This document shows, piece by piece, positions 9,001-15,000 of a DNA stretch of 64,000 nucleotides. The first letter of the stretch is position 1; the number at the start of each line of letters is the position of its first letter. The position numbers were made by a program. Origin of the DNA: Pocillopora damicornis. Its lineage: Eukaryota. Location of the stretch: positions 1 through 64,000 of the forward strand of contig NW_020847687.1 of the NCBI RefSeq assembly GCF_003704095.1, read 5' to 3'.

Positions 9001-12000
9001 TAACATCTAATTTCTCCTTGCAATATACTCCCTGAATCACACATTAAGCTCACAAGAATAAAGGAAATGATCACCAACTTTTTAAAGAAGCATTTGATTG
9101 TTAAACAAATTCTCCTTGTCAGCACCCTAAGAAATGTATGATGAACAGTATGGAGAATATGAATTCTGATGTTAGAGTGTAAAGGGTTAACATAAGTTAT
9201 TCTATCATTCTATTAATCGCCCTTTGTTTCCTTTTCCCTAAACTTTCCTTCTCCCTTATGACTGCAACATAATGTTCTCATGATTAAAAAAAAAAGTGTA
9301 TAATGAAAGAAGTCATACTAACCTTTCCCTTTGAATTCCCTGTGTAAATGTATTCTCCTTTTCTATCAAAAGATGCCACAATGTTCTGTTCAGACTAAGC
9401 AAACACAAATTTGGTATTTTAGTTCAGATATTCAGTCACCACATTCATGTTTATTTGCTGAATTGTAAGTTTTCCAAATGTTTACAAACAAGTCACAGGA
9501 CTCTTTGGTGTGACACTTAGCAGCAATGTACAAACCATTTAACTCCCATGAGTGACCAAAACAGAATTTCTCCTTACAATATCAATACAGTACCTCAATA
9601 CAATACCAAGCCACTGAGTGACAAGAAGAAAAGGGATTATTAGTTAATCTAAAACCAAATTCTTTTCACTAACATCATAATAATTGTATGGCATCCAGTA
9701 AGGAGAATTACTTAAAAGATCTTGGGAGTGATGGGGTTAATAAAACAAGAGTAGCAGTGATGAGGGGAGGAAAAAAAGGAGCTGACCATTGGATTTTCCT
9801 TCATCATGTTCTTCTCAGTCTCTTTATGGTTAATCAGTGGTCTTTTACCATGGGAAAGTTTTCTCCCTCTCTTTAAGACATTTATCGTTCCTTTTGATGT
9901 CATTTTTCTTGTCCTTGAAGACTCCTTAGCTGAAGCAACTCTTGGGTATAGTGAAAAGGTGCTCAAGGAATTATTGATGTGTGAAAACAAGGAAGAATCT
10001 GAAGAGGGATTCTTTCCCAGAACTTATTAAGACATTAGTCCTCTTGCCAACAAACAACTCCCAGCATTTCACACTTTGTAAAAGTGTTTTTATTTCTCAT
10101 TTCTTGCATAATTGTCACTTTGCTTGGTTAAATCAACTTTAACAAAGATCTTTAGTATCACCATTAGGCCACTAGGCTTTGGGAACAAAGGATGTCATCT
10201 TGGAAATTAAATGATTTTGAATTATGAGTTTGAGGGCATGATGCAAAGTCCCAGTTTTTAAAATATTACTTGCAGAAAAATAGCTTGAAATTAAGTCTCC
10301 AGCATTCATGTAATAGTAATGTTAAAAATACATTCACAAACAGCCAAATAAAAAAATGGATCACCATCTTTAGCTAGATGAACAAAAGAGACTCAGAGAG
10401 CGCAATTCTCGACCTAAATTTTGAAGGCCTTGATGGATAAACTCACATCACTATACCACAATCTCCTGTTCTGACATTTCTTAATGGAAATGCTGCTCAA
10501 TAAGTATCACAAGTTATGATGTTATAGCTATGTAGCCTAAGGCAGACTCTCTGTTGGTGGAAACTAGCAAAATTGGTGATGGCCTGAAAAGAAGTAATGA
10601 AGAGCAGGCCAAGTGGTGAGGTTCCTTCCAACTTTCCTTCCAATTTTTTCTTTTTTGCTCACCCAGATTTTTTGCTTGCTACTGAAAACTTACAGTTTAA
10701 AACAGGTTGATAGCCATGCAATGAATCAAATGAATGTGCAGCCTTTCTTGATATTACTGTAATTCTAAATTTTGAAGTTGCAAAATCCCATCCTGTGTGA
10801 GGATGTTACGCAATGAAACATGATTCTTGTGCAGCTCTTTCTCATAATAAGTGATCTGAGGAGGAAACCACTGCTGTAAATCTTCAAAGCATTTACTAAA
10901 TTTACAACACTGTTCTTCATTTCTGCTGCATTTTATTGCAATGTACAAAATAATGCTGACTGGACTAAAAAGCAGATCTCCTTCAGCAAGAATGGCAATG
11001 AAGCTGGAATCGATGCTGGAGAAGTGTTCAGCTTCTTTTCTTGTTATGACCACAGCACATGACCAATGACACAGATTACGAAGATTGCTGAGGTCAGAAT
11101 ACAACTTGTCACATTCTTCGTTGCACAAATCAGTTGCTCTTTTTTTGTCTCCATTAGTGTAATAAAACAGACACTTTACAGCACTGCTATGAATTCCACC
11201 ATCTTCAAATCCAGATGGGTGCTTCAATACTCCTGCCTTTGAAATCCAACTTTCAGCTTGAGCTAACAACCCCTGCTGCTGTTCAGCACTTGAGCCACAT
11301 GTTGATAATGCCATTAGATGATAGCTGTCACCAAGGGAAAGAAACAGCAGCTTCTCATAAGCACTTTGGAAACTTGGGTCTGTGATAACCCTTGGCAAAT
11401 CATCTAAAATCACTTTTGCAACATGCTCGACTTTACCACTTTCTAATCTGCGGAAGAAAAAGTGTTTGAACTCCTGCAAGGTTTCAGTTAGATGCATTGA
11501 TTCAAAGTAGTTCTCATTGTTTTGGAAATGATTTAGGCTGTTGTGTGAATTAACTTGTGCTAACTGAGATTCCGCATTGCTGGGGGAATCAGAATTCTTC
11601 AAGACCAGGTACAGAGTAACAAAGTCACCACTTGACCTGAACGTGTCTGCAGCAAGTTGCGACTGTAAGATGGCAAGGGGAAGATCGCTCACCATAGATT
11701 CAAGAATGGATATTGCATCCTTTCGTTGCTCAAAATCCAAGTGATCCATCATGTTATTTGATACTACAAAGTAATTTGGGCATGTCCCACTTGTCGTGTA
11801 GGACAGCAGTTCTTCAATTATGACTAAAATGCACTCCAGAATTCTCTCCTCATCCCAAGAACTCTCAGGCATTCTTTCGGAAAGCCAAAAAATAGCAGTC
11901 TTAATGAAATAAGAGCAAATCACTTTTGGCTCTGCGCTTAAGTTTTCTTTGCACAGAGATTTCACTGCGATGTAACATTTGATCTTCACGTCACTCCAAC

Positions 12001-15000
12001 ATCGGATTAGTGTTTTTTCTGCTAGAGAGAAAGACAATCGCCATTCTTTGCCTCGATCTTCACTGCACGGATGACCGACACCGACGTACAAGCACCCTTT
12101 AGAAACGATTTTCTCTATAATTTCCGGACTAGGTTGGTTAAATTCTCTCGGGCGAGAAGCAAATTCAGAGGCGATGTCAGGCCATTCGCAACACGGTAAC
12201 GCACAAACAAAGTCTTGATTGTGGGCATCATCTGTTAGCGCAGGACCATGTTCTGTAAGATCACCAAAAAAATCGTCATCATTTTCGGTCTCTTCTGGGT
12301 CCGATTCCAACATGAACGCCTTCACGACATCACTTCTGAGAAATCCGTCATTTTCAGTTAGCTTAAAATCATTATGTCCGCTTTTGACGTTATTTCGACG
12401 TAAATGCACATAGCCTGGGTGGAGATCACTAGCGATGAAATAAGAAACTTCTTTCTCTTCTTCAATGATACTTGTAGACTGATTAACGACTCGAAAATTG
12501 TGGTTAACAAACATGAAATCATCGTCGGCTGCTCGCTCTATTCCTTCAGCTTTGCTGCCAGTGTAGTGAAACGTAACTAGCGTTTGCGAGTCATCCATGG
12601 ACTTAAAGTTGTACAAGTATTCGCTTAAATCACAACCACATCTCACCGGTTGACAGCCAATTAAAAATCCTGATAATATAAAATTTATCGTGTCATTCAG
12701 TGCAGGAGATGACAATGGCAGACAATTAGTCGATTCGTCAAGAGAAGTCGAAGCTTCGTTGCTCTCCTCTTGAGCTTCCGCCATTTTGTTTTGCTGTTTG
12801 GAGTCTGGGAGATATGGGAAAGGGTGGCGTTGCGTGACATCACAGCAAAGGGGAGTGATAAAAAGACAGTGTTATGACGGGTTTCTCGCTCAGGATTTCC
12901 GTCTCGTTCACGCAAAAAATAGTAAATAAATAATAAAAATTAAAATAAATTGCAATGTAACCATACATTCATGATGTTGGAATTTTGGTAGCCAGGTCGT
13001 TTTTTTTTTTTAAATATATGGAATAACCACTTACGGATGTAGAGGAGTGAACAGCGCACTTAAAAAAATGGCACTATTCCAAGATTTCCTACAAGCTAGC
13101 TCTCACACAAGGTTCAGGCTGAGATTCAGAGAGGAGTATAAAGGAGCTTGCAAAAGGAGAGCTCATACACAAGCTAACTCAAAGAAGCATAGGGAAGTCA
13201 CCTGCCTGATGCTAGTTAGGATACACTCTAGTGTCAAACCAAGTAGCAGCTGGAAATGTTGAAATTCGCCTTTACCTAACAGTCCCCTCTGATCCAGTGA
13301 ATGTTGTTATCAATCGTTTGTTTTTCTTATTCCAAATTCATTTATCTTCTTTTTCTTGTTCATTAACCCTTTTACTCCCACAAGTGACTAAGACAGAATT
13401 TCTCCTTACAATGTCAATACAATATCAACCAGATAGGTGATGAGAATAAAGAAAAATATCAATTTGGGGATAATTAGTTGATCCAATACTAAATTCTCTG
13501 AACTACCATTATAAGAATTGTATGGTTGACAGTAAGGAGAATTACAAATTTGATCTGGGATTTAAAGGGTTACCTCATAACATCTTTACACACTATCTAA
13601 ATTCAATCATCTAAATCATGCTCATCTCAGTTAGTCCCTTTTCCTCCCTACCAACTGGTGGCTAAAGAGCCTGGCCTTACAGGCCATTTGAAACTCAAGT
13701 GGGGTACCATAGAACCATGGATACAGGTACAAGGAAATGTGTGCATGTTAGAGGGAAGAACTGAAAATCAGATCTTGGAAGTAAAAAAGGTTAAGTAAAA
13801 GAGAGTGCACTTACAGGAAAATCTCTTGTTTTCAAATGAAGAGGTCGTCAGAGGTATGACATTCCCGGGCTAGGTTGTTAGATAAGTGGGTCATTGTTTA
13901 TTTACACTGATGTTAATACAAAGATGTATGTAGTAGCTAAGCAAAGTGTGATACAGTTTCACTGAACGTACGGTTGATCACTCAGGAAAACCTTGCCAAG
14001 AAGCTAACATTTTTTTGGGCAAGAAAAGGATGAAAGCAAGATAAGGATAACCTTTGTTTTACTCCCTGTTCCCTTTAAATTGCATTTGCTATGTTCCCTT
14101 TAGTCATCACCCTGATTGGGTGCCTGTTTGCAGACTGGTTTGTGCATGGAGCACTTTATCAAAAAGGAGAAGGTCTTTTTTTTGGTTTCTCTTTTCACTG
14201 ACATTGTATGCAGCTGAGAAACATTCTGTATCAAATAGTTACCTTACAATTTCAAATTACCTAAAATATTGAGAAAGTTCCTTTAGAGCAAGTATTTTTA
14301 ATTCATAATTAACATTTTACCAATATTTAAAAATATAACCTTTATGAATACATTAAAATGTTGAATTACCTCTCCACCATTTGGCAGAGAAAAGTGCTGT
14401 CCATCCAGCTTGACAAGTACTGGTGAATGTTTCATAGGACACACAAGTATGATGTTACTACAACAAGAACAAAATGTGTTTGGAATCAGTCTTGATGAAC
14501 TGTTCTCAAAGGAGTAATTTCTTTCCTCGCCACACACACTTGCTTGGCTGAGTTCAAAATACTTTTCCCATGGAAAATAGCTATCAAGAAACTCTAAAAA
14601 AAACCCATTCAGAGAAATCATTGTGAAGAATTTGTTAGAAATTTGATCAATTTTTTTTAGATTGCTGTTATGAATTGTGATCATCACACTATCAAATGAT
14701 CCACAGTCAAATTCAGACTGCCTAGCTCTTTAACTCCCATGAGTGACCAAGACAGAATTTCTCCTTACAATATCAATACAATATCAACCAGACAAGTGAT
14801 GAGAATAAAGAAAACTACCAATTTGAGGATAATTAGTTGATCCGATAATAAATTCTCTGAACTAACATTATAAAAATTGTATGGTTGACAGTAAGGAGAA
14901 TTACAAATTTGGTCTAAGAGTTAAAGGGTCAACCCTTGATATCCTAACATCAGTAGGCATATTCTCCATACTGCTCTCATTACATTTCCTAAGATGCTAG

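What the first reader, a model, noticed from the sequence alone, without database searches (positions are those of the whole stretch)
10754..12910. Catalytically intact cGAS-like receptor nested on the same strand inside an RBBP5 intron
Seen: a 2-kb intronless ORF in RBBP5 intron 9395-14369 with the GS motif, DxD and third Asp intact. Its 5' half and upstream region are CpG-rich within an otherwise CpG-poor gene body, and a YY1-like CAAAATGGCGG overlaps its ATG. Known: cGLRs make cyclic dinucleotide signals for STING and are expanded in corals; most nested genes are antisense to their host. Inference: an immune sensor, possibly retroposed, with its own unmethylated promoter and a polyA site that RBBP5 transcripts must read through.
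Basis: partly seen in the sequence, partly recalled or inferred. Interest (0 to 1): 0.75.

Follow-up and report, generated by a model that had tools for sequence, protein, structure and literature searches.

The report
Acidic cGAS-like gene nested in RBBP5
A real, conserved single-exon gene for a cGAS-like enzyme with an extra helical tail sits inside an intron of the chromatin gene RBBP5 in a sea-anemone/coral-type animal; it is a new member of a known immune-sensor family rather than a new kind of thing.

Summary
A 676-aa ATG-to-TAA frame (10754-12784, minus strand) lies wholly inside a GT-AG, phase-0 intron (9395-14369) of an RBBP5 gene on the same strand. It carries both Mab-21 domains above Pfam cut-offs. 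G76-S77, D87/D89 and D191 are invariant in 14 orthologue-group sequences and all present in 104 of 108 relatives. A pLDDT-90 model superposes best on the coral enzyme Sp-cGLR1. A 1.25-kb CpG island (o/e 1.05) covers the 5' half of the gene plus about 300 nt upstream, in a host gene body at 0.2 (P 6e-28).

Corrections:
- The protein is strongly acidic (pI 4.8), unlike nucleic-acid-sensing cGLRs (pI >8.5, Li et al.), so dsDNA or dsRNA is an unlikely ligand.
- It has a 317-aa C-terminal helical domain with no Pfam or PDB relative.
- It fails the literal published active-site regex.
- Retroposition has no support.
- Same-strand nesting is a minority case, not rare (about 37% in humans).
- The nearest named relatives are sea anemones, not stony corals.

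Expression, methylation and synteny could not be tested. Verdict: new member of a known kind, moderate interest.

The parts
10754..12784 (-). Coding sequence of the nested cGAS-like (Mab-21 family) gene: 676 aa plus a TAA stop, uninterrupted
   Evidence: ORF list; Pfam PF03281 at 33.1 bits and PF20266 at 56.4 bits, both above the 24.1 cut-off; full-length orthologues at 62-98% identity plus one at 37%
12005..12709 (-). Nucleotidyltransferase core (about aa 26-260)
   Evidence: Model m398abe566e4c, pLDDT 90.4; Foldseek best hit 8gjy Sp-cGLR1, E 1.5e-10, target-normalised TM 0.69; family profile aligns to 8gjy over profile positions 4-358 at E 1.9e-44
12554..12565 (-). Codons for Y74-T75-G76-S77 (the 'h[QT]GS' part of the active-site motif)
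   Evidence: Translation; G76 and S77 invariant in 14 of 14; G in 105 and S in 104 of 108 relatives
12515..12526 (-). Codons for D87-D88-D89-F90 (first two catalytic acidic residues, D87 and D89)
   Evidence: Translation; D87 in 108 of 108 and D89 in 107 of 108; aligned with the acidic pair of Sp-cGLR1 to within one residue
12212..12214 (-). Codon for D191 (third catalytic Asp)
   Evidence: D in 106 and E in 2 of 108; aligns with the 'VDL' Asp of Sp-cGLR1, followed by the shared WP motif
11708..11980 (-). Mab-21 C-terminal helix-bundle domain (aa 269-359)
   Evidence: Pfam PF20266, E 3.5e-15
10757..11707 (-). C-terminal all-helical domain (aa 360-676), unassigned
   Evidence: No Pfam family (best E 0.11); no PDB sequence relative at E<=10; confidently modelled as helices; conserved in the orthologue group; found in 23 of 222 family proteins by profile and 55 of 222 after 5 jackhmmer rounds
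11751..13100 (.). CpG island covering the 5' half of the CDS and about 300 nt upstream; presumed unmethylated promoter region
   Evidence: o/e 1.05 (11751-13000) and 0.95 (12785-13100) against 0.15-0.21 around it; Poisson P 6e-28 and no comparable window in the host body. Methylation state is inferred, not measured
12778..12788 (-). CAAAATGGCGG across the start codon (YY1-like, or Kozak context plus Met-Ala)
12805..12824 (-). Pyrimidine-rich tract ending in CAG, 20 nt upstream of the ATG; resembles a 3' splice acceptor
   Evidence: Read from the sequence; not scored and no RNA data. If used, the gene has a 5'-UTR intron or can accept splicing from RBBP5 exon 5
10089..10094 (-). First canonical AATAAA downstream of the stop (660 nt); candidate polyadenylation signal
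   Evidence: Pattern scan; usage not testable
10644..10673 (-). A-rich tract 81-110 nt after the stop
   Evidence: too weak to count as a poly(A) remnant
9395..14369 (-). Host RBBP5 intron (4975 nt, GT-AG, phase 0) holding the nested gene
14370..14457 (-). RBBP5 exon upstream of the host intron (88 nt)
   Evidence: PDB RBBP5 chain 6km7_A residues 113-138; acceptor and donor read
9323..9394 (-). RBBP5 exon downstream of the host intron (72 nt, SEQNIVASFDRKGEYIYTGNSKGK)
   Evidence: PDB RBBP5 chain 6km7_A residues 143-169, E 4.3e-10; boundaries
17885..17903 (-). Start of the RBBP5 coding sequence (MNLELL..., followed by donor GTGAGT)
   Evidence: The match to the RBBP5 N-terminus is by eye against recalled sequence and was not tool-tested
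17751..18750 (.). CpG island at the 5' end of RBBP5 (presumed host promoter)
   Evidence: 53 CpG, o/e 1.42

Best explanation
This is an autonomous, protein-coding nested gene for an acidic cGAS-like receptor (Mab-21/cGLR superfamily) with an added C-terminal helical domain.

Shown:
- The gene is a single uninterrupted 676-aa frame inside one RBBP5 intron, on the host's strand.
- The protein has the cGLR fold and all five catalytic positions (G76, S77, D87, D89, D191).
- It belongs to a slowly evolving orthologue group.
- An island of undepleted CpG covers its 5' end, within a strongly CpG-depleted host gene body.

Inferred:
- The island marks a germline-unmethylated promoter of the gene's own, interrupting the gene-body methylation of the broadly expressed host.
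- Host RNA polymerase reads through the nested promoter and through whichever poly(A) signal the nested gene uses (the first AATAAA is 660 nt past the stop), and the whole unit is removed with the intron.
- On binding a ligand, the protein makes a cyclic di- or oligonucleotide that signals to a STING-type receptor.
- Because both halves of the protein are acidic, the ligand is most likely not nucleic acid. A positively charged molecule or a protein is more likely, and the C-terminal helical domain is the probable sensing or partner-binding module.
For: Gene structure and nesting.

Family: both Mab-21 Pfam domains pass their cut-offs. By single sequence against the PDB, MB21D2 scores 5.6e-14 and Sp-cGLR1 1.8e-10. 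By family profile, Sp-cGLR1 scores 1.9e-44, MB21D2 1.2e-31, Cv-cGLR1 7.4e-28 and cGAS about 1e-27.

Fold: the model has pLDDT 90.4 and pTM 0.90. Foldseek gives 8gjy at E 1.5e-10 with target-normalised TM 0.69, and cGAS at 0.64-0.69.

Active site: the positions are invariant in 14 of 14, and all five are present in 104 of 108 relatives.

Selection: full-length orthologues at 62-76% identity and one at 37%, with no truncation, including the tail. The orthologue clade has SH-aLRT 100 and short internal branches (0.01-0.30) against a median end branch of 0.66 in the rest of the tree.

Promoter inference: CpG o/e 1.05 against 0.2, and a TpG/CpA excess of 1.50 in the depleted 3' half against 1.13 in the 5' half; P 6e-28. 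CpG loss as a proxy for methylation in Cnidaria, and lower methylation of dynamically regulated genes than of housekeeping genes, are stated in the abstract starts of PMC8857923 and PMC4378018 (listing).

Not an RBBP5 fusion: orthologue-group proteins are 655-712 aa and carry only PF03281 and PF20266.

Ligand: pI 4.77. All 14 orthologue-group sequences have pI 4.7-5.4. Li et al. report pI >8.5 for dsDNA/dsRNA sensors and a negatively charged groove with unknown ligands for acidic cGLRs.
Against: No expression, methylation or enzymatic data could be obtained.

The literal active-site pattern of Li et al. is not met: D88 and Q190 occupy 'hydrophobic' positions and the spacer is 99 residues against 50-90. 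As I coded it, only 3 of 108 relatives meet it.

An intact triad does not prove activity. Li et al. list MB21D2 and Mab21L1/L2 as having complete putative sites, and MB21D2 remains an orphan. Shrimp Mab21 proteins act by binding IKK-epsilon without making cGAMP (abstract of PMC12928593).

A splice-acceptor-like tract 20 nt before the ATG (12805-12824) allows for an upstream non-coding exon or for splicing in from the host, so 'intronless' holds for the CDS only.

No STING gene or other cGLR was found among the window's long frames.
Confidence: 0.6

Rival explanations
1. A non-enzymatic Mab-21 protein. It keeps the fold and the acidic residues but works as a scaffold or adaptor through protein-protein contacts made by the C-terminal helical domain, in immunity or development, as MAB21L1, MB21D2 or the shrimp Mab21 proteins may do.
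For: The best single-sequence PDB hit is the orphan MB21D2. The orthologue group is slow-evolving and looks single-copy rather than an expanding, fast-evolving immune family. There is no basic surface. The literal cGLR regex fails. Shrimp Mab21 proteins activate IKK-epsilon without cGAMP synthesis (abstract). Helical-repeat tails usually bind proteins (general knowledge).
Against: All five catalytic positions are kept in 104 of 108 relatives and 14 of 14 orthologue-group sequences, across deep divergence. That is hard to explain without catalysis or at least nucleotide binding. The closest structure by profile and by fold is an active enzyme, Sp-cGLR1.
Confidence: 0.25
2. Not an independent gene: the ORF is expressed from the RBBP5 promoter as an alternative terminal exon, spliced from exon 5 to the acceptor-like site at 12805. 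The result would be an RBBP5-truncating or bicistronic transcript.
For: The ORF is on the same strand. A pyrimidine tract plus CAG lies 20 nt before the ATG. Same-orientation nested genes are reported to force exonization and cryptic polyadenylation of host transcripts (PMC3192792, abstract and passages).
Against: Splicing at 12805 puts the ATG out of frame with RBBP5: 20 nt separate them, and that frame stops after 37 codons (frame 12700-12939). Orthologue-group proteins begin at the same Met-Ala and carry no WD40 domain. A CpG island the size of the host's own promoter island sits at the 5' end. Occasional host-nested chimeric transcripts would not contradict autonomy.
Confidence: 0.08
3. 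A processed retrogene that inserted into the RBBP5 intron and acquired a promoter there.
For: The CDS is uninterrupted. An A-rich tract lies 81-110 nt after the stop. About 41% of human nested genes are single-exon (PMC3192792 passage).
Against: No target-site duplication was found. The only sizeable flanking direct repeats are a common interspersed element, and the upstream copy is 91% and 89% identical to copies at 14.7 kb and 34.2 kb but 72% identical to the downstream copy. The A-rich tract is interrupted. The orthologue group reaches 37% identity, so any insertion would be ancient and its marks erased. No multi-exon parent was identified. A possible 5'-UTR intron would argue against it.
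Confidence: 0.1
4. An assembly artefact: the ORF-bearing segment does not really belong in this intron.
For: None found. The window does contain three N runs.
Against: No N lies within 9395-14369 and the nearest run is 6890-7188. Composition changes gradually rather than abruptly. The same interspersed repeat family occurs inside this intron and in the neighbouring introns.
Confidence: 0.03

Closest known systems
Sp-cGLR1 of Stylophora pistillata (PDB 8gjy; Li et al. 2023)
   Same: Best match by family profile (E 1.9e-44 over the whole NTase plus helix bundle) and by fold (E 1.5e-10, target-normalised TM 0.69). The GS, acidic pair and third Asp align. It is also from an anthozoan.
   Different: Sp-cGLR1 is a 376-aa chain without a tail, senses dsRNA and makes 3'3'-cUA (PMC9980059 passages). 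The protein here is 676 aa with a 317-aa helical tail and is acidic (pI 4.8). It is about 20-24% identical in the structural alignments.
Human MB21D2 (PDB 7lt1), an orphan cGLR
   Same: Best single-sequence PDB hit (5.6e-14). A Mab-21 protein with a putatively complete active site and no known ligand (PMC9980059 passages).
   Different: The alignment covers only aa 200-353 by single sequence. MB21D2 has 'SGG' where this protein has 'TGS' and lacks the long helical tail.
Acidic cGLRs (Pd-cGLR with pI about 5.0, Sp-cGLR2) described by Li et al.
   Same: Low pI, an expected negatively charged ligand groove, ligand unknown.
   Different: No tail is reported for them in the passages read.
cGLRs fused to TPR or ankyrin modules (Li et al., Figure 1C legend and text)
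   Same: An NTase core followed by a helical-repeat region. 87% of cGLRs are stand-alone, so fused forms are a known minority.
   Different: No TPR signal here. Pfam finds nothing. hhalign against the TPR-bearing tails gives probability 0.1%. Jackhmmer reaches 55 of 222 relatives but none of the 14 TPR-bearing ones. On the core tree, 12 of the 14 TPR-tailed members lie on the other side.
Mab21 nested in Lrba/Nbea (Tsang et al. 2009, Genomics 94:177)
   Same: A Mab-21 family gene nested inside an intron of a large host gene. MAB21L2 is called a 'nested gene' within LRBA in PMC11511899.
   Different: Different paralogue, different host and different presumed function. I saw only the title of the Tsang paper in reference lists and did not establish the relative orientation.

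Membership tests
Mab-21 / cGLR superfamily (Pfam PF03281 + PF20266) | Both the Mab-21 nucleotidyltransferase domain and the Mab-21 C-terminal helix-bundle domain score above the curated cut-offs | tested here: met
   33.1 and 56.4 bits against a cut-off of 24.1
cGLR enzymes as defined by Li et al. 2023 (PMC9980059) | Criterion 1a: the catalytic residues of the active-site motif (GS, two acidic residues, a third acidic residue) are present and aligned with those of known enzymes | tested here: met
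   G76, S77, D87, D89 and D191; invariant in 14 of 14; aligned with Sp-cGLR1
cGLR enzymes as defined by Li et al. 2023 (PMC9980059) | Criterion 1b: a literal match to h[QT]GS X8-20 [DE]h[DE]h X50-90 h[DE]h | tested here: not met
   D88 and Q190 sit at 'h' positions and the spacer is 99 residues. With h coded as AVLIMFYWC, 3 of 108 relatives match. The authors curated by hand, so this heuristic may not have been applied literally. Whether the protein is in their Table S1 could not be checked because supplements are closed
cGLR enzymes as defined by Li et al. 2023 (PMC9980059) | Criterion 2: homology across both the NTase core and the C-terminal helix bundle | tested here: met
   The profile aligns to 8gjy over profile positions 4-358; both Pfam domains are present
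cGLR enzymes as defined by Li et al. 2023 (PMC9980059) | Criterion 3: predicted structural homology to known cGLR/CD-NTase enzymes | tested here: met
   pLDDT 90.4; top Foldseek hits are 8gjy, cGAS, MAB21L1 and MB21D2 at E 1e-10 to 1e-9, target-normalised TM 0.59-0.69
cGLR enzymes as defined by Li et al. 2023 (PMC9980059) | [quoted passage not shown] | not testable with these tools
   Needs recombinant protein and NTP assays
Nucleic-acid-sensing cGLRs (cGAS, Dm-cGLR1, Sp-cGLR1 type) | High pI (>8.5) and a long positively charged ligand-binding surface | tested here: not met
   pI 4.77 overall and 4.53 for the N-terminal 359 aa (NTase plus Mab-21_C), net charge -32; all 14 orthologue-group sequences at pI 4.7-5.4. 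The threshold is from a Li et al. passage. Surface electrostatics of the model were not computed
TPR-fused cGLRs | Recognisable tetratricopeptide repeats C-terminal to the NTase | tested here: not met
   No TPR family at E<=10; 0 of the 4 orthologue-group proteins scanned against 14 of the 60 proteins scanned overall; hhalign probability 0.1%; jackhmmer does not reach the TPR-tailed members. The TPR hits come from other members of the profile
Processed retrogene | Uninterrupted coding sequence | tested here: met
   A 5'-UTR intron is not excluded (acceptor-like tract at 12805-12824)
Processed retrogene | Flanking target-site duplications and a 3' poly(A) remnant | tested here: not met
   No target-site duplication; the flanking repeats are a common interspersed element. 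There is only an interrupted A-rich tract at 10644-10673
Processed retrogene | An intron-bearing parental paralogue | not testable with these tools
   No eukaryotic genome collection could be searched
Nested (intronic) gene with its own promoter | The whole coding sequence lies within one host intron | tested here: met
   CDS 10754-12784 inside intron 9395-14369
Nested (intronic) gene with its own promoter | An independent transcription start and poly(A) site inside the intron | not testable with these tools
   Only indirect evidence: the CpG island and an AATAAA at 10089-10094

The most novel reading that the evidence does not exclude
The gene is the founding example of a conserved anthozoan subfamily of acidic cGLRs. 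Their unassigned 317-aa helical tail would be a new ligand- or partner-recognition module for a non-nucleic-acid signal. The literal active-site pattern used to catalogue cGLRs would skip this subfamily, so part of cGLR diversity may be uncounted. In addition, its same-strand nesting under a CpG island inside the COMPASS subunit gene RBBP5 could couple its induction to host-gene transcription through transcriptional interference.
Probability: 0.15. Interest if true: 0.6.

Novelty: new member of a known kind. Interest (0 to 1): 0.35.

Why it matters
cGLRs are a large family of animal pattern-recognition receptors, and most of them have no known ligand. A slowly evolving, strongly acidic member with an intact active site and a confidently modelled, unassigned helical tail is a reasonable candidate for finding a non-nucleic-acid cGLR ligand or a new regulatory module.

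Only 3 of 108 relatives match the literal published motif, which is a practical warning for motif-based catalogues.

The locus is also a clean example of an undepleted CpG island inside a strongly CpG-depleted gene body, useful for asking how invertebrate gene-body methylation accommodates an internal promoter on the same strand.

None of this changes the general picture. cGLRs are abundant in cnidarians, fused helical-repeat forms are known, nested Mab-21 genes are known, and same-strand nesting is not rare.

Tried and rejected
- TPR identity of the tail. The family profile hit TPR proteins such as IFIT1 and OGT. That signal comes from other family members. The tail alone has no Pfam or PDB match, hhalign gives probability 0.1%, and jackhmmer never reaches the TPR-tailed members.
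- Flanking direct repeats (9533-9739 and 13365-13572) as ends of an inserted element. Rejected: about ten copies or fragments occur in both orientations across the window, and the two flanking copies are each other's poorer match.
- First structure model from 14 sequences. The NTase core was poorly modelled (pLDDT 63.5), so it was replaced by the 108-sequence model.
- Atlas look-alikes of the tail. Only tails of other Mab-21_C proteins came up, at a score of 0.90, which the tool says shuffled proteins reach 4-10% of the time.
- Rfam on the whole window: only a tRNA at 41922-41994, nothing in the intron.
- Other long frames in the window: no second Mab-21 gene and no STING.
- Literature. No listed paper combines RBBP5 with cGLR, Mab-21 or nested-gene terms. 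In one search, 92 papers held at least 2 of the 5 terms, and the 10 listed all had zero RBBP5 occurrences; the other 82 were not inspected.
- The tree is the quick search, because the careful one did not finish in the time allowed. It is rooted at the midpoint and has several long branches.

Full report
**Observation.** The window holds a 676-aa ATG-to-TAA frame at 10754-12784 on the minus strand. The stop-to-stop frame runs 29 codons further upstream, to 12871, with no earlier in-frame ATG. In a window of 37% G+C such a frame is far beyond chance. It also has full-length relatives.

The frame lies in an intron with its donor GT at 14369/14368 and acceptor AG at 9396/9395, in phase 0.

I searched the flanking exons one at a time against solved structures.
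- Exon 14370-14457 aligns to residues 113-138 of RBBP5 chain 6km7_A (E 0.039 for a 30-aa query; all 4 hits at E<=10 are RBBP5).
- Exon 9323-9394 aligns to residues 143-169 (E 4.3e-10).
- An upstream exon at 16125-16304 matches at E 4.6e-28.

Further RBBP5-like exons are visible in the minus-strand frames from about 17.9 kb down to about 4.5 kb, with the start codon at 17903. The host call therefore rests on single exons. Host and nested gene share the minus strand.

**What the protein is.** Pfam finds the Mab-21 nucleotidyltransferase domain (33.1 bits) and the Mab-21 C-terminal domain (56.4 bits), both above the 24.1-bit cut-off.

Against PDB sequences the single protein hits human MB21D2 (5.6e-14), Sp-cGLR1 of the coral Stylophora pistillata (1.8e-10), a beetle cGLR, MAB21L1 and cGAS. 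A profile of 108 relatives puts Sp-cGLR1 first (1.9e-44, aligned from the N-terminal helix to the end of the helix bundle). MB21D2 follows (1.2e-31), then oyster Cv-cGLR1 (7.4e-28) and cGAS (about 1e-27).

A first structure model from 14 sequences was poor in the NTase core (pLDDT 63.5). A second, from 108 sequences, reached pLDDT 90.4 and pTM 0.90. Foldseek places that model on Sp-cGLR1 (E 1.5e-10, target-normalised TM 0.69), then cGAS, MAB21L1 and MB21D2.

**Active site.** The residues Y74-T75-G76-S77, D87-D88-D89-F90 and Q190-D191-F192 are present. In the alignment of the query with 13 orthologue-group proteins, G76, S77, D87, D88, D89 and D191 are invariant. In 108 relatives:
- D87 is invariant.
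- D89 is D in 107.
- D191 is D in 106 and E in 2.
- G76 is G in 105 and S77 is S in 104.
- All five positions are right in 104 of 108.

The pairwise and profile alignments put D191 on the 'VDL' Asp of Sp-cGLR1, followed by the shared WP motif. They put the acidic pair on that enzyme's pair to within one residue.

It does not hold for the literal pattern that Li et al. give, h[QT]GS X8-20 [DE]h[DE]h X50-90 h[DE]h (PMC9980059). D88 and Q190 are not hydrophobic, and the spacer is 99 residues because of an acidic loop. As I coded the pattern, only 3 of 108 relatives pass. The authors curated by hand, and their tables are supplements that I could not open. I therefore cannot say whether this subfamily is in their catalogue.

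Residues 360-676 form a second, all-helical domain that both models predict with confidence and that is conserved across the orthologue group. The evidence on what it is:
- It has no Pfam family (best E 0.11, a spurious GPCR hit) and no PDB sequence relative at E<=10.
- In the atlas it resembles only the tails of other Mab-21_C proteins, at a score the tool itself rates as weak.
- The family profile did hit TPR proteines such as IFIT1 and OGT at its C-terminal positions, but that signal belongs to other members.
- Of 60 relatives scanned, out of the 108, 14 have one weak TPR near the C-terminus. None of the 4 orthologue-group proteins among those 60 does.
- hhalign between the orthologue tails and the TPR-bearing tails gives probability 0.1%.
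- A profile of the orthologue tails finds the domain in 23 of the 222 family proteins fetched. Five jackhmmer rounds reach 55 of 222, and none of those is TPR-bearing.
- On a quick maximum-likelihood tree of the NTase core (108 rows, none dropped), the orthologue group is one clade (SH-aLRT 100). It lies within a 40-row clade (99) holding 16 of the 17 other tail-sharing members, and 12 of the 14 TPR-tailed members lie on the other side. This was the quick search, rooted at the midpoint and with several long branches.

The tail is therefore a recurrent, lineage-tracking, unassigned module. Li et al. report that 87% of cGLRs are stand-alone and that some carry TPR or ankyrin modules, so an appended helical region is not new in kind.

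The protein is strongly acidic. Its pI is 4.77 overall, 4.53 for the N-terminal 359 aa (NTase plus Mab-21_C; net charge -32) and 5.27 for the tail. All 14 orthologue-group sequences fall at pI 4.7-5.4, while the 108-member family has a median of 6.6 and 27 members above 8.

Li et al. state that dsDNA- and dsRNA-sensing cGLRs have pI above 8.5. They say acidic ones (Pd-cGLR at about 5.0, Sp-cGLR2) have negatively charged grooves and unknown, probably non-nucleic-acid ligands.

**The locus.** CpG o/e values are as follows:

| Stretch | CpG o/e |
|---|---|
| 5' half of the CDS | 1.07 (48 CpG) |
| 3' half of the CDS | 0.27 (11 CpG) |
| 316 nt upstream of the ATG | 0.95 |
| Rest of the intron | 0.07-0.15 |
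| RBBP5 gene body | 0.19-0.21 |

The depleted 3' half shows the matching TpG/CpA excess, 1.50 against 1.13. At the host-body rate 8.2 CpG are expected in the 1250-nt island and 56 are seen (P 6e-28). None of the 174 non-overlapping host-body windows exceeds o/e 0.5. The only comparable island nearby is at the 5' end of RBBP5 itself (17751-18750, o/e 1.42).

CpG loss is an accepted proxy for germline methylation in Cnidaria, and housekeeping genes are the more methylated class. I saw this only in the abstract starts of PMC8857923 and PMC4378018. Reading the island as an unmethylated internal promoter is a sound inference, but it is not a measurement.

The CAAAATGGCGG motif is there (12778-12788). 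Its core occurs twice in the window against 0.09 expected. The other copy, at 62863-62872, also lies on a Met-Ala start inside a CpG island, and 12 of the 14 aligned sequences begin Met-Ala. The motif therefore cannot be told apart from a Kozak context plus coding constraint.

Twenty nucleotides before the ATG there is a pyrimidine tract ending in CAG (12805-12824) that looks like a splice acceptor. 'Intronless' is shown for the CDS only. If RBBP5 exon 5 spliced there, the ATG would be out of frame and that frame closes after 37 codons. Orthologue-group proteins are 655-712 aa with Mab-21 domains only, so a fusion protein is unlikely.

The first canonical AATAAA is 660 nt past the stop (10089-10094).

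**Retroposition.** The CDS is uninterrupted, and an interrupted A-rich tract lies 81-110 nt after the stop. I found no target-site duplication, however. The striking direct repeats on both sides of the gene are copies of a ~210-nt interspersed element with about ten copies or fragments in both orientations. The upstream copy is 91% and 89% identical to copies at 14.7 and 34.2 kb but only 72% identical to the downstream one. With orthologues down to 37% identity, the gene is old. A recent retroposition is not supported, and an ancient one cannot be tested here.

**Context and taxon.** Other long frames encode a CBL-type E3 ligase (49.8-56 kb, plus strand), an NDK-domain protein (about 40-41.9 kb) and a BEN-domain frame (28.7 kb). 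No second Mab-21 gene or STING was found. Rfam finds only a tRNA.

A single CBL exon finds its best named relatives in the sea anemones Nematostella (73%), Actinostola (75%) and Exaiptasia (71%). No stony coral appeared among the 120 hits listed, and the tool warns that long-protein searches can miss relatives. The window is anthozoan, but 'coral' is not established.

The closest orthologue cluster (98% identity, 469 member sequences, contig 2883 nt) could not be inspected. The short contigs of several orthologues (2.3-3.8 kb) would fit mRNAs, but that is a guess.

**Comparison with what is known.** cGLRs are numerous in cnidarians and bivalves; S. pistillata has 42 (PMC9980059). Nested Mab-21 family genes have a precedent in Mab21 within Lrba/Nbea (title seen in reference lists; MAB21L2 is called nested in LRBA in PMC11511899). 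About 63% of human nested genes are antisense and 41% are single-exon (PMC3192792), so a same-strand, single-exon nested gene is a minority case rather than an oddity. The same paper reports that same-orientation nested genes provoke exonization and cryptic polyadenylation of host transcripts, which fits the acceptor-like tract.

An intact triad is no proof of catalysis. MB21D2 is still an orphan, and shrimp Mab21 proteins work by binding IKK-epsilon (abstract of PMC12928593). I found no paper linking RBBP5 with cGLR or Mab-21 terms among the 10 listed of 92.

**Verdict.** The feature is a genuine, conserved, probably autonomous nested gene for an acidic cGLR-type protein with an unassigned helical tail. 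It is a new member of a known kind. Its main value is as a candidate for a non-nucleic-acid cGLR ligand and as a tidy case of an internal CpG island in a methylated-type gene body.

Still untested:
- Expression, methylation, synteny and enzymatic activity.
- The fold relatives of the tail on its own.

Noticed in passing
window 9533-9739, 13365-13572, 14728-14929, 15157-15321, 34191-34406, and fragments near 5410-5507, 8972-9026, 16795-16848, 24758-26321: A ~210-nt interspersed repeat (SINE- or MITE-like) with about ten copies or fragments in both orientations, at 68-91% identity and mostly in introns. Two copies happen to flank the nested gene.
   Followed up: partly
window 62863-62872 (+), within CpG island 62001-63250: The second AANATGGCGG site sits on an apparent start codon ([17 protein letters not shown]...). 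Both copies of the motif in the window are at Met-Ala starts in CpG islands. The gene was not identified.
   Followed up: no
window 6890-7188 (N run) between RBBP5-like exons at 7783-7986 and 6562-6720: The N run lies where one RBBP5 exon would be expected from the order of the exons on either side.
   Followed up: no
window 49794-56092 (+): A CBL-type E3 ubiquitin ligase gene: Cbl_N (E 1.1e-54), Cbl_N2 and Cbl_N3, a RING domain and a weak UBA domain, on separate exons.
   Followed up: partly
window 39995-41869 (+) and 41922-41994 (-): A 625-aa open frame ending in an NDK (nucleoside diphosphate kinase) domain start, in a CpG-rich, higher-GC stretch, with a tRNA gene (49.3 bits) immediately downstream on the other strand.
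   Followed up: no
window 28699-29220 (+); also 22662-24140 (+) and 26534-27391 (+): A BEN-domain frame (E 2.9e-08). Two long open frames nearby (493 and 286 aa) have no Pfam match. Copies of the interspersed repeat lie among them, so this may be transposon-derived sequence.
   Followed up: no
window 9003-9209 (-) and 19707-19817 (-): Two stretches whose translations resemble each other (...HILHT..FL.VL.RRICLTI..FF...), suggesting a second interspersed repeat family.
   Followed up: no
window 12836-12845 (-), about 55 nt upstream of the nested ATG: GTGATGTCAC, one mismatch from a CRE/ATF-type site (recalled consensus, not tested), inside the CpG island.
   Followed up: no
family proteins P0183 and P0191: Two relatives also give sub-threshold hits to the MTPAP-like poly(A) polymerase palm domain (PF22600) at their N-termini, a reminder of the shared Pol-beta NTase fold.
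   Followed up: no
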